NCBI RefSeq assembly: GCF_021028975.2
Contig: NC_059425.1
Coordinates: forward strand, 23,994,001 to 24,058,000
DNA: 64,000 nucleotides
Direction of reading: 5' to 3'
Source: Sphaerodactylus townsendi
Taxonomy: Eukaryota
Shown here: positions 1 to 61,589 of the stretch, piece after piece
Numbering within the stretch: the first letter of the stretch is position 1
Layout: every line of letters starts with the position of its first letter
Program-made: the position numbers and the translations under genes
The notes under the pieces: generated by a model
Database searches by the model: none
Told to the model about the DNA's origin: nothing
What the model saw: the letters and a program-made list of their open reading frames with translations, nothing else

Positions 1-257
1 TTGCAGCTCTGTGCCAAATTTAAGTTCTCAATTCAGATGCAAGAGAAGTTTTTTTTTTTAATTATAAAACATTTACAAAATAATTCATGTGGAGAAAATG
101 GATAGTTACTTTCACTTTCTAGGAAACAACCCTGTTGGTAGAGAATTGGTACTTTATAAACCACAGTAATGGGAGAACCAGCATGGTGCAACAGTTTGAG
201 CGTCAGTCTACATCTACAAGTTGGTTTATGCAGTTGCTTGGGAACACAGTAGAGTTT

Positions 258-405
258 GGGGTGCTGCGTGGTTTCCAGGCTGTATGGCCGTGTTCTAGCA
301 GCATTCTCTCCTGACGTTTCGCCTGCATCTGTGGCTGGCATCTTCAGAGGATCTCAGACACCACACAGCACCCCAGTGATTCCGGCCGTGAAAGCCTTTG
401 ACAGT
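258..405 (-). mobile_element. Short Penelope-like (PLE-derived) retroelement insert
   Basis: Inverted termini GGGGTGCTGCGTGGT / ACCACACAGCACCCC plus a short tail; flanked by 12-bp direct repeat ACAGTAGAGTTT (246-257, 406-417); contains a hammerhead core. Confidence 0.75.
309..351 (-). ncRNA. Minimal type-I hammerhead ribozyme motif
   Basis: Minus strand UCCU-CUGAAGA-U-GCC(agccacagaugca)GGC-GAAA-CG-UC-AGGA: core boxes, stem I UCCU/AGGA, stem II GCC/GGC, GUC cleavage triplet, vestigial palindromic stem III (ACGU). Confidence 0.7.
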
Positions 406-730
406 ACAGTAGAGTTTACTTCTGAGAAAGTTTTATGAATGAGGACCAGGCAATAAGTAAGGTTTTCAACCTCTAGGTGGGGCCTGGAGATCTACTGAAA
501 CTGTATGAGGATCAGGTTATAAAAGCCTCATTTGCAAAGCAGGTATGACTTGCTGGAGTTTCTTCAACAAGCAAGTGAAGCTCATACAGCCTTATTCCCT
601 CATCTGCAATATGAGGTTAATAATACCAGTGCATCTTACATGGCTGTTGAAAGGAGTGTGAAGTGTGTAGAACACTATACCCTTCAAGCAATATTATTCA
701 CAATATGAGAGAAGGCCACGCATCCAGTAG

Positions 731-1024
731 GAGCCAGCATGGTGTAGTGGTTAAGAGCAGCTGAATTCTAATCTGGAGAACCAGGTTTGATTCCCCACTC
801 CTTCACCTGAGTGGCAGAGGCTTATCTGGTGAATCAGGTGTGTTTCCACACTCCTACATTCCTGCTGGGTGACCTTGACCTAGTCACAGTTCTCTCTGAA
901 TTCTCCCAGCCCCACCTACCTCACAAGGTGTCTGTTGTGGGAAGAGGAAGGGAAAGGAACTTGTAAGCCACTTTGAATCTCCTTGCAGGAGAGAAAGGGG
1001 GAATATAAATCCAAACTCTTCTTC
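731..1024 (+). mobile_element. Squam3-type tRNA-derived SINE
   Basis: A-box TGGTGTAGTGG, B-box GGTTTGATTCC, MIR-like core GGGTGACCTTG, L2-like tail, (CTT)n end. Confidence 0.85.
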
Positions 1025-1219
1025 AGTATAATTGGAGGATATTAAAGATATTAATTTATAGTGTGCACTACAGGTGGTGTGGTCCAGTAATGGGGCAAAA
1101 GTTTAAAGCTGCATGATGAACAACCATGGTCTTCTTTCAATCCTGTCAGTGTGACAGACAAGAACCAAACAGCCTTCATATTACATGGACCTAGCTAGAG
1201 ATGAATTTGTTATACGTAC

Positions 1220-1357
1220 CTTGAATGCTTAGGTAAGTAACTTCAGGAATAGCTGTGAAAGGGAGGCCTGAATGTAAGAGGGAATATAGTGTGATATAAC
1301 AGCCTATGGGTTGGTATTTCAGAAGAAAACGATGACTCTTTGTTAAGCATTTCAAGG
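1220..1357 (-). CDS. Candidate TSACC-like coding exon of a gene divergent from CCT3 (partial gene)
   Basis: AG acceptor 1359-1358, donor AAG|GTACGT at 1220/1219; 138-nt phase 1-1 open exon encoding LKCLTKSHRFLLKYQPIGCYITLYSLLHSGLPFTAIPEVTYLSIQ, similar to recalled TSACC [9 protein letters not shown]...PPATFLNIQ; syntenic position. Confidence 0.5.
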
Positions 1358-1513
1358 CTATTATGGAGATACAGATGTAGACAAGCAGTCCAGGCACTAA
1401 GAAAACCGACCCAGAAAAGACAAAAATGTAGTAAGTAGGCTAGGAATAGTCTTAAGATGGTATGGGTAGAAAGCTCCAGAAGAATGTTCTGCATCTATAC
1501 TAAAATTACTCAC

Positions 1514-1523
1514 TGCTTTGCAT
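1514..1523 (-). CDS. Candidate first coding exon portion (ATG CAA AGC A) of the TSACC-like gene
   Basis: ATG at 1523-1521 preceded by an in-frame stop; donor GTGAGT at 1513-1508 in phase 1, splicing in frame to 1357 across a 156-nt GT-AG intron. Confidence 0.35.
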
Positions 1524-1873
1524 AAAAGTTCTGGTCACCAGAGATTGGATGAGCCCTTCCCCCTTTCACTTGCTGGACAACTCTTTATTCAAACAATGAT
1601 TTTTCAACCTTCCAGCTGGCGTCCTTCGTTTGGCTGAAGGAACACCAGGAAAAGGCCCAGTTTGGCTATCAAGTGTATGTTCAACTGTATAGATAACCTT
1701 CCCGTCTATCTATGAATCTATAAGCCCTATCTCTATATATGGTCTTATGCACAGATATAAACTATTAGAATCTATTCCTCAGATTATGCTGACAGAATAG
1801 GGACTCGCTGCATAACGGACGCTTTTAATAATTGACTTTTGCACCGCTAAGCACGTGTTGAGAAAACAGCCGC

Positions 1874-1984
1874 CTACTGTTCCCATAATGCCTAGCAATA
1901 CTAGAGGTGTAAGTCCGGCCTGAGCCAGGACTTCAATTCCCATGATGCCCTTAGGCAGATAAGACTACAAATTCCATGATGCCT
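1874..1984 (+). promoter_or_regulatory. Three ZNF143/Staf (SBS) plus ACTACA-type motifs
   Basis: CTACTGTTCCCATAATGCCT (1874), GACTTCAATTCCCATGATGCCCT (1929), GACTACAAATTCCATGATGCCT (1963). Confidence 0.75.
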
Positions 1985-2079
1985 ATTCTTGGGCTTGGTG
2001 AGACTCCGCAGTTCCTTCGTTGTCCCCCAAAACTCGCCTTTGGGGTGTTGCTGGTCAGACCCAGAGTGGACCAAGTGTT

Positions 2080-2620
2080 GAAGCGACCGTCGATGCCAAG
2101 GTTTCCCACCTCCATCCATCCAACCGCTGACTAAAGAGTTATGCGCGTGCGCTGTTCTCCAACCGCCGCTTTTAAAACCTTTGCGCAGGCGCAGTGGGTT
2201 TCACTACGCCTCGTTCGGCTCTGCCGCACGCATGCGTTCAGAGGAGTGGCCACGCAAGCGCGCTGCTTCGTCCCTCTAAAGCGGCTCTGCACGCGCTGGA
2301 GTGAATAAGGAGGGGCGGAGAAAAGAACAGCCAGCAAAGTCTCGTCCGTTGTCTTGTCAACCAATCTTGCTTGACGAAAGTGGGCGGTACTCTCGTGACA
2401 GAGACTACTTCTCTATTGGTCAAAGAGGCCGCAGTGGCCGCGGTGATTGGCGGCCGCCCCTGAGAGGCAGTTTAGGCTGTCCGGGAGCGGTGAAGCGGCG
2501 CTTTTCTCTCCCTCCCTCTCTCTCCTCCAGAAGGTTCCTTGCCGGTTTAGTTGCTCGCCTCGTCGCGGAGATGCTGGGCCCGCGCCCCGTCCTCGTGCTC
2601 AGTGAGTTGGTTGAGGGTGG
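2080..2620. promoter_or_regulatory. CpG-island, probably bidirectional, promoter of CCT3
   Basis: CpG-rich; NRF1-like TGCGCGTGCGC (~2142), TGCGCAGGCGCA (2182), GCACGCATGCG (~2226); CCAAT at 2361 and ATTGG at ~2415 and ~2446; pyrimidine-tract start at 2501. Confidence 0.8.
2571..2601 (+). CDS. CCT3: CCT3 exon 1 (MLGPRPVLVL)
   Basis: ATG 2571, donor GTGAGT at 2602. Confidence 0.95.
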
Positions 2621-5600
2621 GGCGGGAAGAAGGACTTTCTCTCTCGTTTGGGGGGCCCCCAAATAGCCCTTCTCCCCCGCCCTAAAAGACCCCCCAACAT
2701 TCCCCCTCCTAAAGCCTCTCTTCCAGTTCCCATCAATGCCCAGGTACACCCTCGTCCCCTCTCGAGTGGGGGGATTATTGGGAGCCCCTCCTGATCCCCC
2801 TCAATAAGCACCCTTTTGCAGTCCCTTGGGAGGATTTTGCTCCGCGTTCCCTGCACCCCGTGTGTCCCCCCTGCGCAAACTGATCTTCATTGCCCCCCTC
2901 CCCCATATTGTATTCCACATCATCCCCAGACTTTTTGCTCCCCTCCCCACGTGTGCATATGGGGAACCCCGCCCTGATTTCCCCCTTTCCAGCTAAATAT
3001 TCCCTGTCATGATCATTTTCGGTTATTTCAACCAAGTGCGTGTCGAGAACTTCTGTGCAGGGTTTGGTGTCTTTTCATCCTTTTCCCTCCTAGCTGACAA
3101 CCCCAGTTGTGTCCTTCTGGGGAGCAGCTAGTGATTTTCTTCTGTCGAGATCTCTCACAGTTTCCTTCCTCTTGCTTGTCTCCCTGCCCTCACCCACTGG
3201 CGGGCCTGTGAGTTCATCTTCTCCTTTGTGCTGTGCCCCTTGCCTTTTATGCACAGCCCCCCTCCATACTTACCTCCATTCAAGCCCCTTTTATGTTTCC
3301 GTGTTTCATTGTGTTCCACAATGATTTTCTCTATAATCTCATCCTACCTTTTGTGTCCACACCACCAACAAGTGTGGGTACTCCACTCTACCTCCACCCC
3401 CCATCACCTTCTTGTATCATGTCTGTTTGGGATCCCCACCCTACCAAAAGAATCATTCTTCCCATATTAAAATCTATTCACTCCTTCCAAAGTTATCATA
3501 GGACCATAAAGTGTTTCCTATTGTTTTTCAGTTTTATTTTAAAAATGTCCAGAACACTACAGAAATAACAAGGCTATGAGTCCTGCCCCAAAATATTTTT
3601 CCATTGCCTCTGGCAGTTGCCTCTGTATGTCTCCTCAATGGGAGAGCTTGCCTATTTTGTTTTGCTTGACTTCACGTACTTCCCTTGAGTATTGCATTAC
3701 TCCCGAGTCTCTGTGCCATTTTGAGTCCGCCTTCCTTCCATTCATAAAAAAGAAACTGGAGTGAGATTTGATGCAACAGTAGATTTATCCAGCACAGGAA
3801 GTCACCTGATATGGATGTGGATCCCTGGCACATGTGTGCGGCAGATAACGGGTTGTCAAAATGCTAGTGGGGCAGAGGCGAAGAGCTGAATTGGGCCAAG
3901 TGGCATTTGTTAACGTATGTGTGAGAGAGGGAAGAGTAGAGCCTGAACGCAGCTTTCTGGCGTGCCATAATGTCTCTGTTGCAGGCATAGACTTTGTGAG
4001 ATAATTGGGTACCTCTCCATTGACAGACCAGTAGATTTCTTTTGGCCAGTCTCAAAATGTAGATGTGCTTTGGGAAAGGATAAGAGAAAAGCAGAAAACT
4101 GAAATTAGTCAGTGATGGCTTTCCTGATATAGTCTCTCTCTTTCCTAACTGCTTGCTGGAGAAGGGTTGCTCTTTAAAGGCTCTTAAACAATAGTCTTTT
4201 GTTCAGTAAGAATGTTAAGTCTTTTTTGGAGAAAGTGTGCGCTCTGCAGCGAAAGGAGATTTTTTCAAATGCACGGGTTTTCATTTTTTTATGGAAGGTA
4301 TGTGAAGGTGCCCCATGTTCTCTAGAGCTACCCAGTGTCAGGAAGCTCTCTGGGTGGTTTGTGGCCAGTCACCCTTTCTTGTTCTAACTATTTCATAAAG
4401 TTGTTGTGAGGATAAAATGAAAGGAAAATCCTATATGCCATCCTGGGGGGAAGGGGGGGAGGAAGGTCGGGTAACAAGTGTCACATACCTAAACATTACT
4501 GAGTGCACATCTACTTACCATACCGATTTGTCAAAAGAGACTCTATTGCATTATTGAGCAATTCATCAGCTGGCCATATAATGGGGCGACAGTTCAGTAG
4601 ATTGGCAGTTTATTGTGATGGGTTGTGAAAGATGGTGACAAGCCAACACTTTTACTCCTGCTGCATCCTACTGAGCATACCCTTAGGAGCACAATAGGGG
4701 AAAAATTGAGATCTGCAGTAGAAGGGGGAATAGACAGAAATGACTGCCCTCTCCCAAAGTTGGAAGTGCCCTGAAGTCTTGGGAGCTGCATATCTGGATT
4801 TAGTGGCTTGTCTTTGTTTAGAAAAACAAAACTTTGCAACAAATGTTGTTCCAGTAGTAATTTGTACTGTTGTATCCTCGGTGTACATAAATAAGCAACC
4901 CAGACAGCTTCTCCTTCCAAGGAATTTAGGATCTAGCTTTCAAAATCTGGCCATGGGGCAAGGAGGTATTAGAGCAACCATGGAAGCAAAGAATGGATGT
5001 GACCCAAGGCAATTATACGTACTGCTGTTTTGTTGCAAGTGGTGGGAACAAATGGGGATAAGGTGTAAAGACTATCAGGAGAAATTTAAATCAACTGCTT
5101 GTACTGTGTTTTTTATTCTTTATCTGTTTTAGGTCAGAACACAAAACGTGAGACTGGCAGGAAAGTCCAGGCTGGAAACATTAATGCTGCTAAGGTATGC
5201 TTTCTTGATATGAAACATATTGCAGTTGTGGCTAGGAGATAAATGCGGTTTGTCTGTTTGTCTGCCAGTTGCAGTATAAAAACTGATCTGTAGCCAGACT
5301 ACTAATAAGCAGTGAGTTGGAATCTACAGATCTTTTCTGCTAATGGTGCTGCTTACCATTGAAACAAAGTAAGAATATAAAAACAAACCACAGGACAAAA
5401 ACAGCATTGAAATTGTCCATTAAACATTTTAAAAGTTGGTAAGATACAACATGGAGTTTGAAAGCCTAAAAGAGAATAAAATGAGCCCTGGACAAGCCTG
5501 AAAAAAAAGGGGGGGGGGCATTCCAGAGACAATCTGCCACCACAGAAAGTGCCCAGTCTCTAGTTGCCATCTGTCTCATCTCGGGGGGGGGGGGGTGGCT

Positions 5601-8600
5601 GTAGCAAGCAGAGCATGAGAGGCAGATTTTAAGTGGCAGTCTGGATAGTAAGGGAGGAGATGGTCCTGCAGGAATCTGTGCCTGGCATGTCTGAATACGA
5701 GAGGTGGCTGGCAGCTACAAGGGGTGGATAGAAGAGAAAATTTGACATGGAGGGAAAATTTGTTTTAACTGTGAATTGAGGGCTTGTGAAGAAGAGGTTT
5801 GTTCCCCTTGCAGACCATTATTAGTTTTTTCTTAAACTCTGTGTTTTTTTTCCAGACTATAGCTGATATTATTAGAACATGTCTGGGACCAAGAGCCATG
5901 ATGAAAGTGAGAAATTCGTTTTTCCTTCCTTGGATTTTTAAAACTCATGATAAAAATATACCATGAGTATAGTTGTGCTTTTGATTTGACTGACACGTTT
6001 CTTGGAAGCTAACAAAAATACTCTTAAATCTCTGACACAGATGCTGTTGGACCCCATGGGTGGGATCGTCATGACCAACGACGGCAATGCTATCCTAAGA
6101 GAAGTAAGTTGACGTCATTCTGACACCAGGTACTTGATGTCTTAGTTTGGCTGAAAGCATGGAAGAGCTAGCGTGATACAGTGGTTAAGAGCAGCAAACT
6201 CTAATCGGAGAACCAGGTGTGATTCCCCACTCCTCCACATGAAGCCTGCTGGGTGAGCTTGGGCTAGGCACAGTTCTTTCTGAACTCTCTCAGCCTCATC
6301 GACCTCACAAGGTGTCTGTTGTGGGGAGGGGAAGGAGTTTGTGAGCCATCATGAGACGACTTACAATAGAGAAAAACAGGATATAAATCTGAATTCTTCT
6401 GTTCTAAAATTTGTAAATTAGTAGTCTCCGCTAAATAGTGCTTGAGACTGGAGAAACAAATTAGGATGCCTCAACTATAAGCTTGCTTAACAGCCTCCCT
6501 ACGCTGCCGAAAAGCCCTCTGTAGGTGGTGGAGCGTCAAGGCAGCAGCACCATCCCCGCCCACCTGGGCCTCTGGATTGAACTGCTCAGCTTCCTAGCAC
6601 TACATTCATGCGACTGACATCTACTGACTTTCTTACTGCTTTTCCAAATAGACCCCCCCCCCAAAAAAAACCCCTGCATTCATCTAGTTCATACTGTTGC
6701 TCTGAGCCTCACTGCCTCAATACCCAGCCATTGTATTGATCTTTCCTCGCATTCTCATATATTAGTGTTCCTTCAGTCTGGGGCATTCTACTGGCTGCAC
6801 CACCTTGTCCTCCCCCTAAGTTTGACAGTTAGTCTTGCCCAGAATTGGGTTTCACTCATCTTCACCGGATGGCCAAAATGGAAGATACGAGGGAAAACTA
6901 GCTATTAGGTATTAGGTAAACAATACTGTTTATAACACAAACATCTGAGAATATTTTTGAGAGCAGAGATCTCATGCTGTAACTGAAAATGTTTATCTCA
7001 GCGGTAAATGGTCTTTAAGCTTTAACAGAATTATTTACAAAGGTATATTTTGAAGTTTTGGAACAAGTCACTCTGTTGTAAAGATCTATGCCCTGCATTT
7101 TGACCAGTTGATCTCTGGGGTGGCTTATAACAGATCAGAACAAAACAAGATGGCTTCAGATGGAATGTGGTTCCTGGCTCACCTCTGTGCAGTTAAGCAG
7201 TTGAAAAAGATGCAGATGAATATAAAACCTTCCTTCCCTCTCCGTGGTGTTCTGACTACTGCTATTGTTCTTACGCAGTGAACCTAGGGAACTATCCCCT
7301 CTTGAAGTTTGCCACCAAGCTTTTCCTGTTGGTTATCTCCCACTCTTCCTTCATAGAATACAACAAACATATGATACTTCCAGCAGTGTTTGGGCCAGGT
7401 CCTGTAGCTTCAGCTTTTGAATCTAAATATACACCTTCTACTTCCTCCAGCTCAAAATTGGCCCCATTCAAACCTTTAGCGCATTTCAAGAGGTTCCAGT
7501 TGAGCTTTGGGAAGCAGACATGATCCAGAACTTAGAGCCTATGCTTCCTTCATTCTTACAGATTCAGGTCCAGCATCCAGCTGCCAAGTCCATGATTGAA
7601 ATCAGCCGCACTCAGGATGAAGAAGTGGGCGACGGGACCACATCTGTCATTATTCTTGGTAAGATCGCTTTGTGCCTGGGTACAGTTGGTGGCCACACGA
7701 CTGGTGTTTCTAAAACCAGAGGTAACCTTGCTCTGGAGTAAAAGTGCGGCTGCTCCCTTGGATGCTACGGGTTGGGTGTCATCTCCTTCAGGAGGGAGAC
7801 CATTAGGACTCTTCTGCTGCATACCCTGCTGAAATGAGTGGGAGAATCCGAAGAACATGTGTAGCTTCCATTCATTTCAGTGGGGCTCAACGAGGGAGTC
7901 TGCCTTAGTGGATTAGGTTTGTTTAGTTTGTAAGCTGCTTTTCTACACAAACATTCCCAATGTGGTTTATGTAAAAATAAACTAATTAAAGCATAAATTG
8001 AACAGCTTGTAAGAGCTTTATGAATGGCACTGGATCTAGACATAGTGGAGGATGCCTCTCTTTCCCCTGATGTTCTAGGCCAGGGGTAGGGAACCTTTAA
8101 CACTCAAAGAGCCATTTGGACCCATTTTCCATGGGAAAAGAAAACACTTGGAGCCGCAAATAATTTTTGACATTTAAAATAAAGATAACACTATATATAT
8201 TGGGGGTTTTTAACCTTTTACTCAGCTCATTCTGAGAAGCGCATGGATGCGTCCGCCCTGCTGCCTGCAGGGCGGGCAAGGATGGGGCCAGCGGCTCAGC
8301 CTCGCCTGCTGCCGGGAAAGCGCCCACCCTGCTCGAACAGGGCAGGCGAGAGGGGAAGCCAGCGGCGTGGCCCAGCCGGCTGCGGGCCATTGGTGCGCCT
8401 GCCCTGCTGCCTCCAGGGCGGGCAAGGATGAAGCCGGTGGCTCAGCCTCGCCGGCCACCGGGAAAGCACCCACCCCGCTCCAACGGGGCGGGCGAGAGGG
8501 GAAGCCCGCGGCTAGGCCCAGCCGACCGCGGGCAGTTGGTGCGCCCGCCCTGCTGCCTGCAGGGCGGGCAAGGATGGGGCCGGCGGCTCGGCTCGTGGAG

Positions 8601-11600
8601 CCGCAGTGCAAGGGCAGAAGCGCATGCGGCTCTCGAGCCGCAGGTTCCCTACCCCTGTTCTAGGCAGTGGAAGCCTGAGGCAGGGGTTACACCCCATGTT
8701 GATTAGTTTGGGGGTAGAGGCACTTGCGTGTTCGTGAACCAATTCAGGAGTCATCTCTCCTTGAAATAAGGCCGATATTGGCTAGCGAAGTGGAGATGCC
8801 ATAGACTCCTCATGGGGCAGACCAGAAAAGGAAGCGACCTGTTGATCTAGAGCAGCTCTTTGTGCCTTGGGCCACAAGGAGTGCTGCTGTCTATTCTTCC
8901 TGTTCTGTGGCCAGAAGTTCTGAAATCTTAGCTGCCCTTTCCACTCCAGCTGGGTAAAAGGCAGTGGGGAACAGACTAGGGGACTGAAAGCACAATCTAC
9001 TTTAAAATACCTGCAGTTCAGAAGTGTTTGTGTTGTGGTGATGCAAGTGTAACACAGTATAGGCAATAGTTCTGTTTTCCTGACTTCTGCTTGCTGTTTA
9101 GCTGGAGAGATGCTGGCAGTGGCAGAGCACTTCTTGGAGCAGCAGATGCACCCGACAGTCATAATTGGGGCATACCGTAAAGCACTGGATGACATGATCA
9201 GTGCCCTGAAAAAAATCAGGTGAGTAGGATGGCCCTAAGTGGGAGAGGGGGAGCACAGTGGGTGTGTGAATTGTGAAGTGCTGGCTGCATCTCTGGACAT
9301 GCTGTGGGGGATATGATGTGGGAAGTGAATCTTATAGAAGGGAAGTCATGCCAGAGGTATAACACTTGAGTTAGTACTAAGATACTTCTCTATTGGATCT
9401 GCATGTTAGAATATTTATTTATTCATTCATTTATTAGATTTCATAGACTGCCTCATCCCCGGAGGACTCTAGGCATTTCACAACACAAAACTAAAGAGCA
9501 GTCGATAAATAACTTAAATTAACTCTAAAAACATTAAAATCAGTATGCAGCATAACATCCCCATATTAGCGGCACCCGGTCTTAAGGCTGGGAGGGACTG
9601 GCAGCACCCCAGATGGAATTAATATAGAGCACTGCCAGAGATGACGCTACGACAGGGCCTCACAAGGGGGCAGAGTACAGACTACAGAATACAGACTCTA
9701 GCTTTGTGACAGAGCATGCCATTTCCAAGTCCAGATTCGTGATAGCAGAGCTAGGAAAAACCTTATCTCGCTTCCGTTCAGAACAAAGAACTGGACTAGA
9801 TGGACTGATGGTTAGGCAACATAAGGAAGCTTCATAGGTTCGGGAGAGACTGTAGAGCCAAGTCTCCATTCCCAGCATCTCCCAGTTAAACGATCTTAGG
9901 TTCCAGTTATGGGAAAGATTTTTCCCTGCTTGACGACTTAGAGAAGATCTCCCAGTTGAAGTAGATAGCATTGGTCTAGATGAGTCAATGACGGGACTAG
10001 GATAACATTACAAATTGAAATGGATTTTAAACCCATCAAATTGCTACAGCTTCCAGCTCAGGTAGGTGCCTGAAGCAGCTTTAGGGATTTCTGACAAAGA
10101 ACTCTTAATGCTTTCAAACTGAGGATCCATAGGGAGAGCCAGGACTATTTTTTGTGATGATATCGAGTTCTCCCAAGTCCGAATCCTTGTGCACTGGCCT
10201 ACCCTGCTTAGCCAGAAAAAAAGAGCAGAACCTGATGAACAAAACTGGGATGTGTCCAGTTGTTGGAGAAAACTAATGGATATTGGCACGAACTTTTATG
10301 AGTACTGGAACTTTTTTTAACCAAAACACTATGGGGACCTGTGATGGCTAATTTGTTTCCAACATTTACAGTTGCTATATTGTTGTTCCAAAGTCATCTA
10401 TTCAGCGGATTAGGAAGGTGAATAGCAGTTAATGTTTGTTTGTTTTTTGTCTTCTGGTTTGTGTGCCTCACGTGGCTTCCACAGCACTCCAGTCGAAGTC
10501 AACAACCGTGAAGCCATGCTTAAAATAATCAACAGCGCCATCAACACCAAGGTGATCAGTCGCTGGTCAGACCTGGCCTGCAACATTGCCCTGGATGCCG
10601 TCAGGACTGTGGAGCTTGAGGAGAACGGCAGGAAAGAAATTGACATCAAGAAATATGCCAAAGTAGAAAAGGTGCAAAGGAGACCTGTGTGTGTTTGTGT
10701 TACTTTAGCAAGGTGGTGCTTACTGTTGGTTGATGTGGGCAGAAGGGATTTGGGAATAGATGACATTTCCTTATTTCTGGTTTCCTCAGTATGTAGAAAA
10801 GGAGGTGTTCGTGTTTAGCTCATAGTTTGTTAGATTGGAAGAGCTTTTTTTTAAGGCAAGGAACTCTCGCATCCTTCCTTTCTCTCTGATATTTCTGCTA
10901 ACAAATACATTCTTCTCTGGAAAGATTCAGCACTTTGGCCCCACCAGATCATACTTTGGAGGAAGGTGTATTTAATTACTATTTTTCAGTATCTTTAAAT
11001 AGTTTATATAAGAAGGAGCCTAATAAAAGTTGGGGAGAGATTTGTGGCTGCATCTGTGTCTAGGCCCAGTAGGCATCTTTCGTCCCCTGGGTTGATTTCC
11101 TCCTGCCTATCAGAAGATGAGGCTCAGTACTGCTTCTAGGCCTGGAGAGGACTTAGCTCAGTTGCCTTATGACACAAACATCCAGGATCACTGAGTTGTT
11201 TAAGGCTTAATAGTGCCTTTTGCTTATTCCAGATTTTATGTTGGTCATGTGACTAGTTCACACGTTTCATTCAGGCTAACAATTAAGTATCACCAATCAA
11301 GTAAGTCAGGCACTCATAGTGATACTGATGAAGACTTCGAAAAATGCTGGATGCGTTTCTTCACTGATTTCACTGAAAAAATTAAGTGACTTTTCTACTA
11401 CAAGAATTTATGAATGAGTTGATGATTTGTAATATAATGAAATTTGACTGAATTGACAGTTTGAAGATAAAACTCTGGTATTTGGTATGGATATGCTAAA
11501 TGAGATAGTCCAACTTAATTGTTAGGATAGTATATATTGATGACAACCTTATGGGGTTTATGTATTGTGATACTTACAATTGATAAAAGTTCATTAAAAA

Positions 11601-14600
11601 ATACAAATTTCTGTTGATGTTTACAGCCTGAATGCAGCGTGTGAACTGTTGGATATTTGGATGTTATAGACGTCGCATTCATTGTTGATTGTAATTTAGG
11701 TCATGTGACTAGGCCATGAAGGAAACTCATTTGCACATCTCCCATACTCCTTTGCCTTGCTACAAAAACTGAATGACTCCTGGCCTCTTAATCCCCCAGA
11801 TTCCTGGTGGCATTATTGAGGAGTCGTGTGTCCTACGTGGGGTCATGCTTAATAAAGATATCACTCACCCTCGCATGCGTCGCACCATCAAGAACCCTCG
11901 CATTATCTTGTTGGACTGCTCTTTGGAGTACAAGAAAGGAGAGAGTCAGGTATGTCTGCTGGAAAAATTGAGATTCATCAGGAATCGTCCACAGAGGTTC
12001 AAGTATGACTTGGGAACCGCATGGATCAGAAGCTTGTTTTGTATTTTAACTGGGGGAGATTACCCAGGAGTAAATTGTTACTTCTTTATGTAACCAGTTC
12101 AGCAACCTCCCATTTATTTCTGAGGTAGGGCTAGGGCCCCAGTGGTGGCGAACCTGTGGCACTCCAGATGTCCATGAACATCTGGAGTGCCATAGGTTCG
12201 CCACCATGGGGCTAGGCAAATAACTTCTGTTCTTGGTTCTTCCCAGTGGGAGAAAACACACAGCCCATGCCCACTGCAGTTCAAAGCAACAGGGCTTTTG
12301 GGAGCTCCAGCTTTGTGAACTTCCCAGGCATGCAGCTCAACCGGGACACTTGCTTTTATCTCCCACCACTTGGAGAACTTTCATCTTTTAAGTTGGCAGC
12401 AGTGCCAGCTTGTTGCACAGAGGCAACAATTATTCAGGCTAGCAACAAAAAGGAATGGAAGAAGCTTCTGTTGAAAAGATGCTTCAAAAAGAAGTCTATA
12501 AACTTGCCTTTCTAAAAACAAACAGAAAAGCTAAGCTTCTTAAGAAGCTGGACTTGGTCAGGACCGTTGGCATTCTTTTCATGCAGACGGACATTGAAAT
12601 CACCCGCGAGGAGGACTTTGCCCGCATCCTGCAGATGGAGGAGGAATTCGTTCAGCAGATTTGTGAGCACCTGATCAGAGTCAAGCCAGATCTCATCATC
12701 ACAGAAAAGGGCATCTCAGGTAAGCGTCCTGCCTACTCTGGAGGTATATATGAATGGGGCTACAAAACCTCTAACTTGTATGAGTGTCTGTGGTGCTTAA
12801 TGGGCTTTTCTCTTGACTTCAGACTTGGCCCAGCACTTTCTGATGAGAGCCAACATCACCGCCATCCGCCGAGTGAGAAAAACAGACAACAACAGGATTG
12901 CAAGGTGAGGCGAACTTGAGTTGCTGCTGGAACCCCTTTGACATTTTTGTAGTGTCATTCCTGAGGTGCTTTTGCATCTCTTGCATTTCATTCATTTGCA
13001 CTGGATTGATAAGAGGGCAGCTGATATAACCAGGGCAGAACAGGAGGGTGAAGAGTGCCAGATTTCCCATTTTCTCCCGTGTCTGTCAGCTGTCTAAATG
13101 AAATCTTCAGACTGATTGCTGCTTGGGCAAGTGTTTTTTAACTGTGGAGGAGTTTGGGAAGCATGATAGAGAGCCCAACAGAAACTTCTTAAAGCTTTCC
13201 TTCTGATGCCAGCTATTGAGGAAGAGCTGGCTGATGGTTTCAAAAACTCTATTGGAATTTCTGCAGTTATAAGCCAAAGAAGCCTCGTTGCCTAACGTAA
13301 CTGTAAATATTTCTGGAACTCGGCAGAGCAAGGAAATTGACAACCTGACAAGGAAATGGATTTTCAAAGTCATAAGAACATAAGAACTAGCCTGCTGGAT
13401 CAGACCAGAGTCCATCTAGTCCAGCACTCTGCTACTTGCAGTGGCCACCAGGTGCCTTTGGGAGCTCACGTGCAGGATGTGAAAGCAATGGCCTGCTGCT
13501 GCTGCTGCTCCTGAGCACCTGGTCTGCTAAGGCATTTGCAATCTGAGATCAAGGAGGATCAAGATTGGTAGCCATAGATTGACTTCTCCATAAATCTGTC
13601 CAAGCCCCTTTTAAAGCTAGCCAGGTTAGTGGCCATCACCACCTCCTGTGGCAGCATATTCCAAACACCAATCACACGTTGTGTGAAGAAGTGTTTCCTT
13701 TTATTAGTCCTAATTCTTCCCCCCAGCATTTTCAATGAATGCCCCCTGGTTCTAGTATTGTGAGAAAGAGAGAAAAAATTTTCTCTGTCAACATTTTCTA
13801 CCTCATGCATAATTTTATAGACTTCAATCATATCCCCCCTCAGACATCTCCTCTCCAAACTAAAGAGTCCCAAACGCTGCAGCCTCTCCTCATAAGGAAG
13901 GTGCTCCTTCAATCATCCTCGTTGCCCTTCTCTGCACTTTTTCTATTTCTTCGATATCCTTTTTGAGATGTGGCGACCAGAACTGAACACAGTACTCCAA
14001 GTGCGGTCGCACCACGGCTTTATATAAGGGCATGGCAATCCTTGCAGTTTTATTATCAACTCCTTTCCTAATTATCCCCAGCATAGAGTTTGCCTTTTTC
14101 ACAGCTTCCATGCATTGAGTTGACATTCCCATGGAACTATCAACTGAGACGCCCAAATCCCTTTCCTGGTCTGTGACTGATAGCACTGACCCCTGTAGCG
14201 TGTATGTGAAGTTTGGATTTTTTGCCCCTATGTGCATCACTTTGCATTTTGCTACATTGAACTGCATTTGCCATTTCTTAGCCCACTCACCTAATTTATC
14301 AAGGTCCACTTGGAGCTCTTCGCAATCCTTTGTGGTTCTCACCACCCTACATAATTTGGTATCATCTGCAAACTTGGCCACCACGCTACCCACCCCTACT
14401 TCCAGATCATTTATGAATAAGTTAAAGAGCAGTGGTCCCAAAACGGATCCTTGGGGGACACCACTCCCTACATCTCTCCATTGTGAGAACTTCCCATTTA
14501 CACCCACTTTTTGCTTCCTGTTTCTTAACCAGTTTTTAATCCATAGGAGGACTTCCCCTCTTATTCCTTCATTGCTGAGTTTTCTCTGGTGAGGAGACTA

Positions 14601-24501: not shown

Positions 24502-24953
24502 CAGGGGTCTCCAATGTGGGGACCATAGTGCCCACTAGGTGTTTTTGAAGCTAGGGAAGACCAGGAAGGTCTTTTGCCTAACAAGGCTTCTGATTGACCA
24601 CTGCACTGCTGTGTTATTTTTTAAATGTTGCTTTAAAAGCAGCTGAGGGGAAGCCCGCGGTGCGGCCCAGCTGGCCACGGGCAATTGGTGCGCCCGCCCT
24701 GCTGCCTACAGGGCGGGCAAGGATGAAGCCGGCGGCTCGGCCTACCAGCCACTGGGAAAACACCTGCCCTGCTCCAATGGGGCAGACAAGAGGGGAAGCC
24801 CGTGGCGCAGCCCAGCCGGCTGTGGGCAGTTGGTGCACCTGCCCTGCTGCCTGCAGGCGGGCAAGGATGGGGCCAGCGGCTCGGCTCGTGGAGCCTCAGT
24901 GCAAGGGCAGAAGAGCCGCATGCGGCTCTCGAGCCGCAGGTTCCCTACCCCTG
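24502..24953 (+). mobile_element. Chimeric hAT MITE (left end of one family, right end of the 8081 family)
   Basis: 24502-24644 resembles the 40660-40960 family; 24645-24953 matches the 8081 family through TIR GGTTCCCTACCCCTG; no TSD. Confidence 0.7.
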
Positions 24954-24964
24954 CTCTACAGCAT

Positions 24965-25450
24965 CCTCCCCTGGCTCCTGAAGAGCTGGAGAAAGTGTCC
25001 AAAAGGGCTACCAAGATGACTTAGGATCAAGGTGAAAAAGTCTTTCCTAGGAGGAAAAACAAGTCTGGGTCTTTTCATTTTAGAAAAAAAGATGATGGGG
25101 CCGGGGGTAAGATATGATAAAGATTTATAAAATTCTGCATGGGGTGGAAAAAGTGGAGTCAGAGACTCTTTTCACCTTTCCCATAACACTATAACTAGGC
25201 AGCATCCCATAAAGTTAACAAGCAATAGATTCAGGAGTGACACAATCCTGCTTTACGCAACCAGTGTAATAAATTGTGGAGTTCATTGTCAGTGGAAATA
25301 GTGGTGGTCACAAGTACGGCTTTAAAAGGGAATCAGATGAATGGAGGAGAGGTGTATCAAAAGCTACTAGGAACGGTGAGTAAAGGGAACCTCCACATCC
25401 AGAGGCAGCAGATCTTTGAAACCCAGTACCAGTTCAGAAGGCAACATCAG
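24965..25450 (+). mobile_element. Degraded CR1 3' fragment
   Basis: GAGCTGGAGAAAGTGTCC...GATATGATAAAGATTTATAAAAT...CATAACACTATAACTAGG. Confidence 0.65.
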
Positions 25451-31900: not shown

Positions 31901-34520
31901 CTTTGAGGAAGAGATGCAATTTGGTTTTGGTTTCCAAAGCAAGGGAGGGCTTGCTCCCAGTGTGGTGCGGGAAGAGGCTGACAAATCCCCAGGTGTAAAT
32001 CTGGGCCTGTGTGTAAACTGAACACACATGAGCACTCCCAGTGAGCTTTGCTGGTTAATCAGATGGTAAAGAGGGGATCTACAGCTCCCTGTTTTCTTCC
32101 ATTTGTTTCAAGCCCCTTTCCATTCTGGACTTCCAAGCAGGGGCATACCATCCATGGGGACATGGGGTAACCCATGTGTGTGACGTAACCCATGTCCCCA
32201 GACGCACATAGTCCTGGGTGCCGGCACCAGCTCCAGGCGGTAGACCTGGACGCCTGCATCACCTCTGAGCAGAAGACCTGGATGAGCTCCAGGTAGTACA
32301 CCTCAGTGCTGGCACAAACTCCAGGCAGCAGACCTAGATGCTGGCACAGGCTTCAGGCAGTAGACCTGGGCTCTGGACGGTTGACCTGGGGAGATGTGGA
32401 AAATTCAGATTTTGTCTCCAGGCTCCAGTTTTCCTAGATACGCCTCTGCCGCCAAGATTCAGGCTGGAGAAACATCTTAGGGCCAATTGGCCATGCTGGC
32501 AGGGGCTGATGGGAATTGTAATCCATAACATCTGTAGTGCCAAAGGTTCGCCACCACTGTCTTAGGGCTTCCAGCTCCAAGTTGGAAATTCTTGGGGATT
32601 TGGGAGTGGAGTCTGGGAGAGGCAGGGTTTGGGAGGGGAGGGGCCTCAGCTGGCTGCAATGCGATGGATTTAGGCAAAACATCAAGGCACCAAGACAGTT
32701 TTATCATTGTTATATCAGTCATCCTCACAACCGCTCTGTAAGAAAGGCCCTCTTTACAATTATTATCTTGCTGATAGGATTGACTGAGAGGCTGAGTTGG
32801 GGAAACAGTTGACATAAGGATACCTAGAGAGGTAATGATTGATGGGAGAGCTGAACCAGGGGCATCCCGGCTCATTGTCCCCTTTTTACAATATTTCTGT
32901 GCTAGTATACAGATATGCTGCATCAACAAGCAGCCGACTTTGTGATCTTCTTGATATTCCATTGTGTGCAAAATGTGGGGTCAAACGATAACTACAAAGG
33001 ATCCCTTGTGGGCTGTTTTGAGACTTAGGAGATGGGGCAAAATCTGACCCTATGCATTTCCTAGCAGACTCAATTCAAGGTGCTGGTATTGACCTTTAAG
33101 ACCCTAATAACTCGGGCCATTAAAGGCAGCCTTTTCCTATATGAGATGACTCATTCACTCCAGTCATCTCTTGAGTGAGACCCAGGCCCTGCAGGACTTG
33201 GTCCAATTCCACAGGGCCCGTAAGACTGAGATGTTCTGCCAGGCTTACGGCTGGGGCTGTGACCCTTTACATCTCAGTTGACCTTCATATCCCCCTCTCT
33301 CTTGTGTGTTAGTATCTTTAATTGTTTTTTTATTCCTTTCCCCTTCTTTTTCTCCTTCCCTCCTTCTCCAGGACCCCCATCAATGTACTATTAAGGGTGC
33401 CGCTTGAATTTTTACAGTTGGAATTGTGAAGTAATAGGATTTTAATTATTGTAGAGATTCTTAACATTCATGTTTGAACTGTGATGCGAGCCACTCTGTG
33501 GCTGACCATGACCGGGAAAAGGTAACATACAAATCCAATAAAAGAAATAAATTGGAGGCCCTCCTGCGGTTGCCACTCCATCTGAGACTAGAGGGGTGAC
33601 AACCCAAGAACAGGGACCAAAACTTTGGAACTCCTTCCCATGGAGATTCATCTGTCTTCCTCTGTCAGTGTCTTCTGCCAGTTGATGAAGATTTTTTTTT
33701 TATTTAGTTGGGCTTTCCCCCAATAATTGCTGTTGGCCTCCTCCCTGGTTCGGTGTTGTAGGCTTATGTATTTTTATTGAATCATTGTAAATGCTGTTTT
33801 AATACTCAAACGATTTAATGCTTTCATATTTGCTGCCTTAGAGACCTAATTGGGTGGAAAGGCGGCTTAAAAACATCTCAAATGATAATAAAGGTGTTGA
33901 TGTCTGATGAGGGTGAGAAAAAAACTTATTTTTTCGTACGAAAAAAACTACTATTTTTCGTAGATTCCTTTTGGTTCATCTTGTGAAGGTATGGGGTAAA
34001 TCCCCTATAGCAGAGTAGCACAATATTCTCACATTAATTCACAAGCAAAGTGCTTCGCAAGGCAAAGCGAAGAAAAGTGTCTCATAGTCCTCAGTATATA
34101 TCAGTGATGGCGAACCTTTTCGAGACCGAGTGCCCAAATTTCAACTCAAAACCCACTTATTTGTCGCAAAGTGCCAACACGGCAATGTAACCCGAATACT
34201 GAGGTTTTAGTTTAGAAAAAACGGTTGGCTCCGAGGCATTCGTTACTTGGGAGTAAACTTGGTGGTAGTCGGTGACTTTGCTTTGAAGCAACCGTGCAAC
34301 TATTCCAATGGGTGAATCACGACCCTAGGAGGGATTACTCTGAAGCAAGCCCCATTGCCAGCAACTGAGCTTACTCCCAGGCAAAGGATTGCACTTTAGT
34401 TCTTCGCATGAAAATCAGTGGGGTTTAACAGCGTTTTACAGGGTTACCTACACTGCTTCCCCAAAACTAGGTCTTAGGTTTAATGCTAATATCCAAGCCC
34501 AGAGACCCAGGCCAGCCTAG

Positions 34521-34552
<32 letters not shown>

Positions 34553-37500
34553 AGAACTCTTTTTGCGTGTGCCCACAGAGAGGGCTCTGAGTGCCACCTC
34601 TGGCACCCATGCCATAGGTTCGCCACCACTGGTATATATCCTCAGTATATATATATATGCAGCCTTATATCTGGTTTACTGGCCTATCACAGTTCTTTAC
34701 CAATCAATCCCAGAATGACTCTGTGTCAGGTGTTACCTGTCAGTTAGCTGTCAGTTAGATTTTGATGATCAGACAGATGTTACATCAGTGCTCTGACAAT
34801 CTTCATCCAATGCAGGTTAGCAACTGGATTGTGGAAAAAGCTGTACATTCATGGGTTTCTCATCTGAACATTTCTAGGTGTTTGAGTACAACGGTGTCAA
34901 CACGTCCAATCTCCTCAAGGTGCCTGCAGATCAGTTCTACCCCACCTATGATTTGGCCAATTTTACATGGGAAAGCCTTGATGGCAAGATGAACGAGACC
35001 ATGCTGACAGCTACATTTCAGGGTGCTGCCTCAAGCCCCCATGGAGCCTTTGGGAATGGCAGTATATCCTTTGAGGTAAATAGCAGGGCAATTGAGTGTT
35101 TCTTAAGCAGCAGGAAAGAAACTGAGCAGAACAGAGGATGAGAAATGATGGGTTGGTTAGGAGAAGGTGGATGTAGGGGACTGAGAGGCAGAGTATCTGA
35201 AAGGAGAGGAAATATCTGTTCCTATAAGCCTGAAATTATGGGCAGGGCTTGGAGGAATTTCGGAAACTGGAGGGGGCTAGAGTTCCCTGTAGTTGGCCAA
35301 TGAAGCCTTCTTCCTGACTTAGAATCATAGAGTTGGAAGAGACCACAAGGGCCATCAAGTCCAACCCCCTGCAATGCTGGAATACACAATCAGAGCATTC
35401 TTGAGAGATGGCCATCCAGCTTCTGTTCAAAAATCTCCAAAGAAGGAGACTCCACCACACTCCAAGGTAGTGTATTCCACTGTTGAACAGCCCTTTCTAT
35501 CAGGAAGTTCTTCCTAATGTTTAGGTGGAATCTCTTTTTTTCACCTTGAATCCATACCTTGTCTCTATCTCTGGAGCAGCAGAAAACAAACTTGCTCCAT
35601 CTTCAACATCACATCCCTTCAAATATTTAAACATGGCTATCATATCACCTCTTAACCTTCTCTTCACCAAACTAAACATACCCAGCTCCCTAAGACCCTC
35701 CTTGTAGGGCATGGAATGCAGACCTTTTAAGAACATAAGAACAAGCCAGCTGGATCAGACCAGAGTCCATCTAGTCCAGCTCTCTGCTACTCGCAGTGGC
35801 CCACCAGGTGCCTTTGGGAGCTCACATGCAGGATGTGAAAGGAACGGCCTTCTGCGGCTGTTGCTCCCGATCACCTGGTCTGTTAAGGCATTTGCAATCT
35901 CAGATCAAGAGGATCAAGATTGGTAGCCATAAATCGACTTCTCCTCCATAAATCTGTCCAAGCCCCTTTTAAAGCTATTCAGGTTAGTGGCCATCACCAC
36001 CTCCTGTGGCAGCATATTCCAAACACCAATCACACGTTGCGTGAAGAAGTGTTTCCTTTTATTAGTCCTAATTCTTCCCCCCAGCATTTTCAATGAATGC
36101 CCCCTGGTTCTAGTACTGTGAGAAAGAGAGAAAAATTTCTCTCTGTCAACATTTTCTACTCCATGCATAATTTTATAGACTTCAATCATATCCCCCCTCA
36201 GCCGTCTCCTCTCCAAACTAAAAAGTCCCAAACGCTGCAGCCTCTCCTCATAGGGAAGGTGCTCCAGTCCCTCAATCATCCTTGTTGCCCTTCTCTGCAC
36301 TTTTTCTATCTCCTTTTGCCATTTTGGTCACCCTCCTCTGGACCCATTCCATTCCAATATCCTTCTTGAATTGCGTTGTCCAGAACTGGACACAGTAGTG
36401 CAGGTGAGGTCTGACCAATGCAGAATAGAGTGGTACTATTGCATCCCTTGGTCTAGACACTATACTCCTATTGATGTAGCCCAGAATTGCACTGGCTTTC
36501 TTGGCTGCCGCATCACACCGCTGTCTCACGTTCAGGTCTACTCCCAGATCCATTTCACATGTACTGTTGTCAAGTCAGGTGTCACTCATCCTATATGTGT
36601 GCATTTCATTTTTTTCTGCCTAAACGTAGTATCTTACATTTATCTCTGTAGAAATTAATTTTGTTAGTTTTAGCCCAGCTCTCTAAGCTGTCCAGGTCCG
36701 TTTGAATTCTGACCCTGTCCTCTGGGGTATTAGCTACCCCTCCTAATTTGGTGTCATCTGCAAAATTGATTAGCATGCTGTCTATTCCATCATTACCACT
36801 GGATAACTTCTCATCCCTCATCACAGGTAGCAGAAGCAAAGACATAAGTGAGGAACTAACTTGCCAAATTATCTTCCAACATTGATGTAATCCTTCCCAT
36901 CTTCAGGTGACGGCTTATGAAGAGAGCAGTCGTGACACCCAACTCCCCCATCTCCTCCACACAGCCAACTGCTCCAAGGTCAACTTTGTCGTGAATGGGG
37001 TGCCACCACGGGGTAACCACTCCCACTTTGCTCTGGAAATCATCACAGTGGAAGAGGGAGGGGAGCACAAGCGCATGGACTCTATCCGCTCCATTGATGA
37101 TGAGTATACCCCAACAATATTTGAGGTACAGTGTAGGCTTGTTGTTGGAATTCTTTCAATACCAGGGACTCGAGACCTGGGGCACCCTTTTAAACAAGTA
37201 TAATGTGCCTTTAGCCAAAAAATTAGATTTGGCTCCATGCACCTGAGATTATGGAAAGGTGTTTCTGGGGTATGGCAATTGGGGCTAGGCACAGTGATTT
37301 TCAAACAAGCGTCAGCCTTTGTGTAGAACTTAACTATTGGATAAGGAGCTAGCTCAGGGGTCTGCAACCTGCAGCTCTCCAGATGTTCATGGACTACAAT
37401 TCCCATCAGCCCCTGCCAGCATGGGATTTGTAGTCCATGAACATCTGGAGAGCCGCAGGTTGCAGACCCCTGAGTTAGAGCAAAGTTGCCTTCTAACATG

Positions 37501-61463: not shown

Positions 61464-61532
61464 TTGAAGTATTACATTAATTAATCTCTTGAAGTATTAC
61501 ATTAATTAATCTATTACATTAATTAATCTCTT
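61464..61532. repeat. AT-rich tandem duplication (TTGAAGTATTACATTAATTAATCTC) at the L2 5' junction
   Basis: Two near-complete units plus one partial unit. Confidence 0.85.
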
Positions 61533-61589
61533 GTTAGGTCCCCAGCGACACAAACTCTGGGATGACTTATTCAACAACAGGTGTGCATG

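What the first reader, a model, noticed from the sequence alone, without database searches (positions are those of the whole stretch)
1220..1523. Candidate reptile orthologue of TSACC head-to-head with CCT3
Seen: the minus-strand exon ATG CAA AGC A|GTGAGT and a 138-nt phase 1-1 exon with canonical splice sites join into MQSTLKCLTKSHRFLLKYQPIGCYITLYSLLHSGLPFTAIPEVTYLSIQ. Established: human TSACC (TSSK6-activating co-chaperone, testis) is divergent from CCT3 at this position. From memory it contains [24 protein letters not shown], and the P-x3-YIxL and PxxT[FY]L[NS]IQ blocks recur here in the same order. Inference: a highly diverged, easily missed TSACC-like gene whose C-terminal exon lies left of the window.
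Basis: partly seen in the sequence, partly recalled or inferred. Interest (0 to 1): 0.75.

Follow-up and report, generated by a model that had tools for sequence, protein, structure and literature searches.

The report
Possible hidden gecko TSACC gene
Next to the CCT3 chaperonin gene of a gecko, at the spot where mammals keep the sperm co-chaperone gene TSACC, lies an unannotated exon-like stretch that likely (about even odds, no RNA or database support yet) belongs to a heavily diverged reptile copy of that gene.

Summary
The described sequence is there: minus-strand ATG at 1523, GT donor at 1513, a 156-nt intron and an open 138-nt phase 1-1 exon (1357-1220) with a strong donor. It faces away from CCT3 across a CpG island holding three ZNF143/THAP11-type sites. 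Published ChIP tables show such sites in the human and mouse CCT3/TSACC bidirectional promoter. I add a likely 120-nt ATG-bearing exon (1633-1514) and a donor at 2109.

Identity as TSACC is unproven. Pfam, which holds SSTK-IP, gave no hit. Three large protein searches and ESM Atlas found no credible relative, although the database holds this species' TMEM79 at 100% and four other geckos'. The 1357 acceptor is weaker than all 11 real acceptors I scored, and stronger in-frame acceptors lie inside the exon. The ATG region has an ~80%-identical copy elsewhere in the genome. No RNA run was available. The motif likeness rests on recall and is only about 15 bits by hand.

Verdict: functional diverged orthologue ~0.5, non-coding or chance ~0.28, decayed relic ~0.17. 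At best a new member of a known family.

The parts
1220..1357 (-). Candidate middle coding exon, 138 nt, phase 1-1, 45 full codons. Alternative in-frame 5' ends at 1396 (177 nt), 1267 (48 nt) and 1252 (33 nt).
   Evidence: only open frame of six; GC3 0.33 against 0.55 for TMEM79
1211..1219 (-). Strong 5' splice donor closing the exon. If unused, the frame stops after 9 more codons.
   Evidence: 9.3 bits, 49 of 6741 GT sites reach it; read-through
1358..1513 (-). Predicted 156-nt intron with a branch-point-like site and pyrimidine tract ahead of the 1396 AG
1514..1633 (-). Predicted 120-nt exon: strong acceptor at 1633, its only ATG at 1523 (weak context, T at -3), in-frame stop upstream of the ATG, 10 coding nt, donor GTGAGT
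   Evidence: 1409-1574 also aligns at ~80% to a second contig (table 8, record 31)
1873..1983 (+). Three tandem ZNF143/THAP11 SBS2-like sites, in predicted intron 1 of the candidate, on the CCT3 strand
   Evidence: 3 matches, 0.36 expected, 1 of 100 shuffles reach 3 (pattern chosen after seeing the sites); aligned; consensus in PMC3627581; no substitution listed in organism B in 1864-1984, a bin covered by one contig only
2101..2112 (-). Candidate donor (2109) of a non-coding first exon starting in the CpG island. Two ATGs just before it would open short upstream ORFs.
   Evidence: 7.7 bits, the only donor above 4 bits between 2600 and 1633; ATG list; use is inferred
1800..2600 (.). CpG island and shared promoter, with NRF1-like palindromes at 2142-2153 and 2182-2193
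   Evidence: CpG o/e 0.6-1.1; (NRF1 motif recalled)
2571..2601 (+). First coding exon of CCT3, the head-to-head partner; CCT3 continues to at least 18.6 kb
   Evidence: Cpn60_TCP1 hits on later exons; naming it CCT3 rather than another subunit rests on recalled sequence and on the GLMP-TMEM79 neighbours
731..1024 (.). Dispersed repeat (SINE-like) in the intron after the candidate exon; further repeat fragments at about 250-490
   Evidence: several 72-92% copies in the window; depth 1e6-1e7

Best explanation
The exon likely belongs to a fast-evolving gecko orthologue of TSACC, predicted to be transcribed away from CCT3 from their shared promoter and to encode a small spermatid co-chaperone. Shown: the head-to-head position, the CpG island with three ZNF143/THAP11-type sites, the splice-site-like sequences and the open frame. 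Inferred: a transcript starts near 2200-2300 on the minus strand, splices 2109 to 1633, 1513 to 1357 (or 1396, 1267) and 1219 to a last exon left of the window, and starts translation at 1523. Inferred from mammals only: the product would bind HSP70 and help HSP90 activate the kinase TSSK6 in elongating spermatids (PMC7401350, passage). It would be missing from annotations because the protein is short and too diverged for homology-based naming.
For: Same slot and same promoter element as human and mouse TSACC, with the SBS2 motif on the CCT3 strand in all three. In mouse the ZNF143 summit lies 530 bp from the Cct3 start and 234 bp inside the partner gene; here the sites lie about 590-700 bp before the CCT3 ATG, inside predicted intron 1. 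The full chain of strong acceptor, ATG, donor, open symmetric exon and strong donor occurs once in 128 kb of both strands (post-hoc thresholds). Only this frame of six is open. In organism B, 54 substitutions lie in 1063-3303. None of the 35 listed for that contig falls in 1063-1407, the longest gap among them; 3.3 are expected in 138 nt. Recalled, from no call: human TSACC has a non-coding first exon, an ATG exon ending in phase 1 and a 129-nt phase 1-1 middle exon, and the tyrosine of the first block is the 20th full codon of that exon in both species.
Against: Pfam: 0 families at E up to 10 (HMMER's filters drop most matches above about 0.1) for the four versions of the frame tried, though SSTK-IP is in the library. 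No relative among 5.8 billion proteins at 80-2000 aa or 31-102 aa. Among 1.84 billion representatives the one hit is a tandem-repeat protein. The same database returns TMEM79 from this species (100%), four other named geckos and many other squamates, so no annotated gecko protein close to this exon was found. Acceptor 1357 is weaker than 11 of 11 real ones; use of 1267 would drop the first motif block. The ATG context is weak, and the ATG and its donor sit in a stretch with an ~80% second copy. The conservation signal is incomplete: 19 of 54 substitutions and some gap letters are not listed, and for surely single-covered bases P(0) is only 0.1-0.2. By hand, against the recalled peptide, the best local match is about 15 bits and needs a 9-residue gap to join the blocks. 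GC3 is 0.33, no higher than the flanks.
Confidence: 0.5

Rival explanations
1. Non-coding or chance. The ZNF143 promoter of CCT3 fires in both directions, giving at most a spliced divergent non-coding RNA; the open frame and the two motif blocks are coincidence.
For: No protein record in any database, though this species' annotation is present. One SBS alone suffices for bidirectional transcription (PMC3082894, passage). The frame runs into both introns (82 codons). Looser chains occur 5 times in the window. Weak acceptor and ATG context; the ATG region is repeated elsewhere. The motif patterns were drawn after seeing the match.
Against: The slot is exactly the TSACC slot. The full chain is unique in the window. 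No listed substitution or indel in the exon in organism B (incomplete list). The recalled exon phase and register match would be coincidence too.
Confidence: 0.28
2. Decaying relic. The DNA descends from TSACC, but the gene no longer makes a working co-chaperone in this lineage, which explains the faint motifs, the weak acceptor and the lack of annotation.
For: TSACC is dispensable: called lost in 5 of 45 mammals, in 4 lineages (PMC9355568 supplement). Weak start and acceptor; no squamate protein found.
Against: The exon is still open, a multiple of three and bounded by a near-consensus donor, which long neutral decay would usually break; no listed change in organism B.
Confidence: 0.17
3. A lineage-specific small protein, unrelated to TSACC, that arose on the divergent transcript.
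For: An exon-like chain with no detectable homologue.
Against: Needs the recalled motif order and exon phase to be chance in a slot already known to carry a gene.
Confidence: 0.05

Closest known systems
Mammalian TSACC / SIP (C1orf182; Pfam PF15836 SSTK-IP, 124 positions)
   Same: Head-to-head with CCT3 across a ZNF143/SBS2 promoter. Recalled: exon layout with a short phase-1 ATG exon and a phase 1-1 middle exon, and two short motif blocks in the same order.
   Different: No Pfam or sequence hit. Recalled comparison: 10 instead of 34 coding nt in the ATG exon, 138 instead of 129 nt in the middle exon, blocks 9 residues further apart. C-terminal half, testis expression and binding partners not seen.
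ZNF143/THAP11 (SBS2) bidirectional promoters
   Same: CpG island, SBS2-like and NRF1-like motifs.
   Different: Three tandem copies here; two motifs are listed for the human peak, and one SBS2 for mouse. Binding not tested.
Divergent promoter-upstream non-coding RNAs (recalled class)
   Same: Antisense orientation, close to a housekeeping promoter, no annotated protein.
   Different: An ATG exon in phase with an open symmetric exon, and apparent conservation in a close relative.

Membership tests
TSACC / SSTK-IP (PF15836) | Scores on the PF15836 profile (cut-off 27 bits) | tested here: not met
   0 families for the 45-, 58-, 69- and 82-aa versions; the family is in the library. Only a fragment of about a third of the model could be offered.
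TSACC / SSTK-IP (PF15836) | Detectable sequence similarity to a known member | tested here: not met
   a 45-aa query needs about 35 bits in these libraries, so a distant orthologue would also be missed
TSACC / SSTK-IP (PF15836) | Head-to-head with CCT3 on a shared ZNF143-type promoter | tested here: met
TSACC / SSTK-IP (PF15836) | Exon phases and sizes like the mammalian gene | tested here: inconclusive
   Gecko side computed; human side recalled; four acceptors compete
TSACC / SSTK-IP (PF15836) | C-terminal coding exon | not testable with these tools
   No genome held. Nothing like it seen by eye in the three minus frames of 1-1219; the 106-aa ORF at 36-353 has no Pfam hit.
TSACC / SSTK-IP (PF15836) | Spliced, spermatid-specific expression | not testable with these tools
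   No RNA holder listed
TSACC / SSTK-IP (PF15836) | Reading frame under purifying selection | tested here: inconclusive
   One close relative at 2.4% divergence, partial list of differences
TSACC / SSTK-IP (PF15836) | Binds HSP70 and promotes HSP90-dependent TSSK6 activation | not tested
   Needs the full protein; mechanism read in a review passage

The most novel reading that the evidence does not exclude
TSACC is an amniote-age gene that survives in squamates but has diverged beyond Pfam and phmmer detection and is unannotated in geckos. The HSP70/HSP90 co-chaperone step that switches on TSSK6 in spermatids would then predate mammals, and a gene that looks mammal-restricted would be a case of homology-detection failure solved by synteny. 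This needs both that the gene is real and that turtle, crocodilian or bird orthologues are not already on record, which I could not check.
Probability: 0.3. Interest if true: 0.5.

Novelty: new member of a known kind. Interest (0 to 1): 0.33.

Why it matters
If real, it fills an annotation gap in geckos and dates the TSSK6-activating co-chaperone to the amniote ancestor, in line with the origin given for the TSSK kinases (PMC7401350). The few residues kept over about 310 million years (date recalled) would mark the functional core of a little-studied protein that acts on a kinase proposed as a male-contraceptive target. It adds no new mechanism. If false, it is ordinary antisense sequence beside a housekeeping promoter.

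Tried and rejected
No whole genome is held, so the region left of position 1 could not be searched.

RNA: no RNA holder listed. X1-X4 behave as genomic contigs, and the 15 joints shown (1358 more hidden) all lie in repeats. This is no evidence on expression.

Protein searches: the phmmer hit P0002 is rejected, being eight copies of a 31-aa repeat summed. The metagenome hit L001 is rejected: a 16-residue match with no DNA likeness. ESM Atlas gave no usable hit twice. PDB gave 0.

Rfam: 0 at gathering in 64 kb; two sub-threshold hits in 1-4000. No copy of 1030-2100 elsewhere in the window beyond two short matches of 31 and 18 nt, and no protein-level match, so the nature of the second copy of 1409-1574 stays open. 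Four look-ups of earlier findings returned nothing.

Literature: 10 searches. 'TSACC' occurs in 61 papers, 40 listed, none on reptiles by title. 'TSACC' with 'mammal-specific' gave 0; with 'CCT3' 2. Searches were swamped by off-topic papers. One apparent fish mention was a sample code. No hit for TSACC/C1orf182 in the held supplements of PMC4290089, PMC3082894 and PMC9834047 (some files unreadable), nor for TSACC in the text of PMC5554394 (its gene tables are not held). The primary paper (Jha 2010) and a placental novel-gene survey are not held. So I found no paper stating the range of TSACC outside mammals, and cannot say it is regarded as mammal-specific.

No structure or complex prediction was run: a 45-aa fragment without an alignment would not be informative. 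A direct alignment to a real TSACC sequence was not run, because no tool returned one.

Full report
Observation. On the minus strand an ATG at 1523 is followed by 10 coding bases and a GTGAGT donor, a 156-nt intron, and a 138-nt exon (1357-1220) that is open in phase 1-1 and ends at a near-consensus donor. This is the only frame of six without a stop over the exon, but it is open for 82 codons and so extends into both introns. With a recalled splice matrix the donors score 9.3 and 6.1 bits, inside the range of the 11 real donors I assigned by eye (3.8-11.5). The acceptor scores 4.3, below all 11 real acceptors (6.8-15.5). Three other in-frame acceptors compete: 1396, 1267 and 1252. Real exons in this window can also hold a stronger internal AG (12635 against 12587), so this weakens but does not exclude the 1357 site.

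Setting. The window carries a TCP-1 chaperonin gene on the plus strand from 2571, then GLMP (NCU-G1 hits), and TMEM79 on the minus strand. The TMEM79 exon is 100% identical to a record labelled Sphaerodactylus townsendi, so this is a gecko. Between the candidate and CCT3 lies a CpG island with NRF1-like palindromes and three tandem SBS2-like sites at 1873-1983 (consensus read in passages of PMC3627581). Supplementary tables of that paper list human CCT3/C1orf182 and mouse Cct3/1700021C14Rik as ZNF143-bound bidirectional promoters with the same motif on the CCT3 strand. In mouse the summit is 530 bp from the Cct3 start and 234 bp inside the partner gene. The aliases are recalled; a human interval labelled CCT3/TSACC overlaps the same peak (PMC10370073, one table row). 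The slot is therefore the TSACC slot, and the promoter element is shared.

Extended model. A strong acceptor at 1633 (9.2 bits) makes the ATG part of a 120-nt exon with no other ATG and an in-frame stop upstream. The only donor above 4 bits further up is at 2109 in the CpG island. That gives a non-coding exon, an ATG exon, a symmetric exon and a missing last exon. By recall this is the human layout, and the tyrosine of the first motif block is the 20th full codon of the middle exon in both. In the whole window, 49 donors are as strong as 1219; 12 close an open symmetric exon, 5 have an upstream ATG mini-exon, and 1 (this one) has the full chain. Markov controls give 0.42 per 64-kb strand and 0 of 12. 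The thresholds came from the candidate, so this is suggestive only.

Homology tests were negative. Pfam returned no family for four versions of the frame, although SSTK-IP is in the library. Word-based searches of 5.8 billion proteins found nothing at 80-2000 aa or 31-102 aa. phmmer on 1.84 billion representatives gave one repeat artefact. ESM Atlas and PDB gave nothing, and the one metagenome locus was chance. The control search retrieved TMEM79 from this species, four other named geckos and many squamates, so a close annotated gecko protein with this exon should have been found. A mammalian orthologue would not have been: by hand, against the recalled peptide, the best local match is only about 15 bits, and joining the two blocks needs a 9-residue gap.

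Conservation. Four public runs hold the stretch, none on record as RNA, and all behave as genomic contigs. One contig of organism B covers 1063-3303 with 54 substitutions and 14 gap letters. The 35 substitutions listed for it avoid 1063-1407, the longest gap among them; 3.3 would be expected in the exon (P about 0.04 if the list were complete). But 19 are not listed, and for surely single-covered bases P is 0.1-0.2. The SBS cluster lies in a bin covered by that contig alone and shows no change. Against the model, a second contig aligns to 1409-1574 at about 80%, and 4-12 contigs per run show the other letter at 1529, so the ATG and its donor sit in low-copy repeated sequence of unknown kind. 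The bin holding most of the 138-nt exon is close to single-copy depth.

Mechanism. Most likely (0.5) this is a diverged TSACC: transcribed away from CCT3, spliced as above, and making a short protein that in mammals binds HSP70 and helps HSP90 activate TSSK6 in elongating spermatids (review passage PMC7401350; preprint passages 10.1101/2024.01.08.574658; the primary paper is not held). Everything from transcription onward is inferred. The rivals are a non-coding divergent transcript or chance (0.28), since one SBS suffices for bidirectional firing (PMC3082894 passages); a decaying relic (0.17), since TSACC is called lost in 5 of 45 mammals (PMC9355568, one passage and 12 of 26 supplementary files); and an unrelated small gene (0.05).

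Membership and novelty. Synteny is met; profile and sequence similarity were tested on a fragment and not met; expression, the last exon and binding could not be tested. It should be filed as a candidate, not a member. Ten literature searches showed no paper on TSACC outside mammals among the listed results, but also none calling it mammal-specific. Database annotation in turtles, crocodilians or birds could not be checked. Supplements that I could not see may bear on this. If confirmed, it is a new member of a known family, of moderate interest as a case of homology-detection failure. Interest 0.33.

Noticed in passing
window 1873-1983 (+): Three tandem ZNF143/THAP11 SBS2-like sites upstream of CCT3, in the same orientation as the sites listed for human and mouse; no change listed in organism B.
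   Followed up: yes
window 1409-1574: Has an ~80%-identical copy on another contig, and several contigs overlap 1529: a low-copy repeat of unknown kind covering the candidate ATG and donor. No copy in the window.
   Followed up: partly
window 32337-32393 (-): The database TMEM79 'isoform X2' of this species ends in a 19-residue stretch matching here, between GLMP exons and about 15 kb beyond the usual last exon at 47.7-47.9 kb; possibly an annotation oddity or a distant alternative exon.
   Followed up: no
window 8214-8703, 24594-25021, 49958-50286: Three GC-rich related stretches giving long open frames on both strands, apparently copies of one repeat family.
   Followed up: no
window 61510-63520 (+); 13562-14597 and 35917-36902 (-): LINE reverse-transcriptase-like fragments, judged by eye from the translations.
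   Followed up: no
window 2115-2119 (-): Two ATGs just before the 2109 donor would give short upstream ORFs if spliced to 1633; one shares the frame of the main ATG and stops shortly before it.
   Followed up: partly
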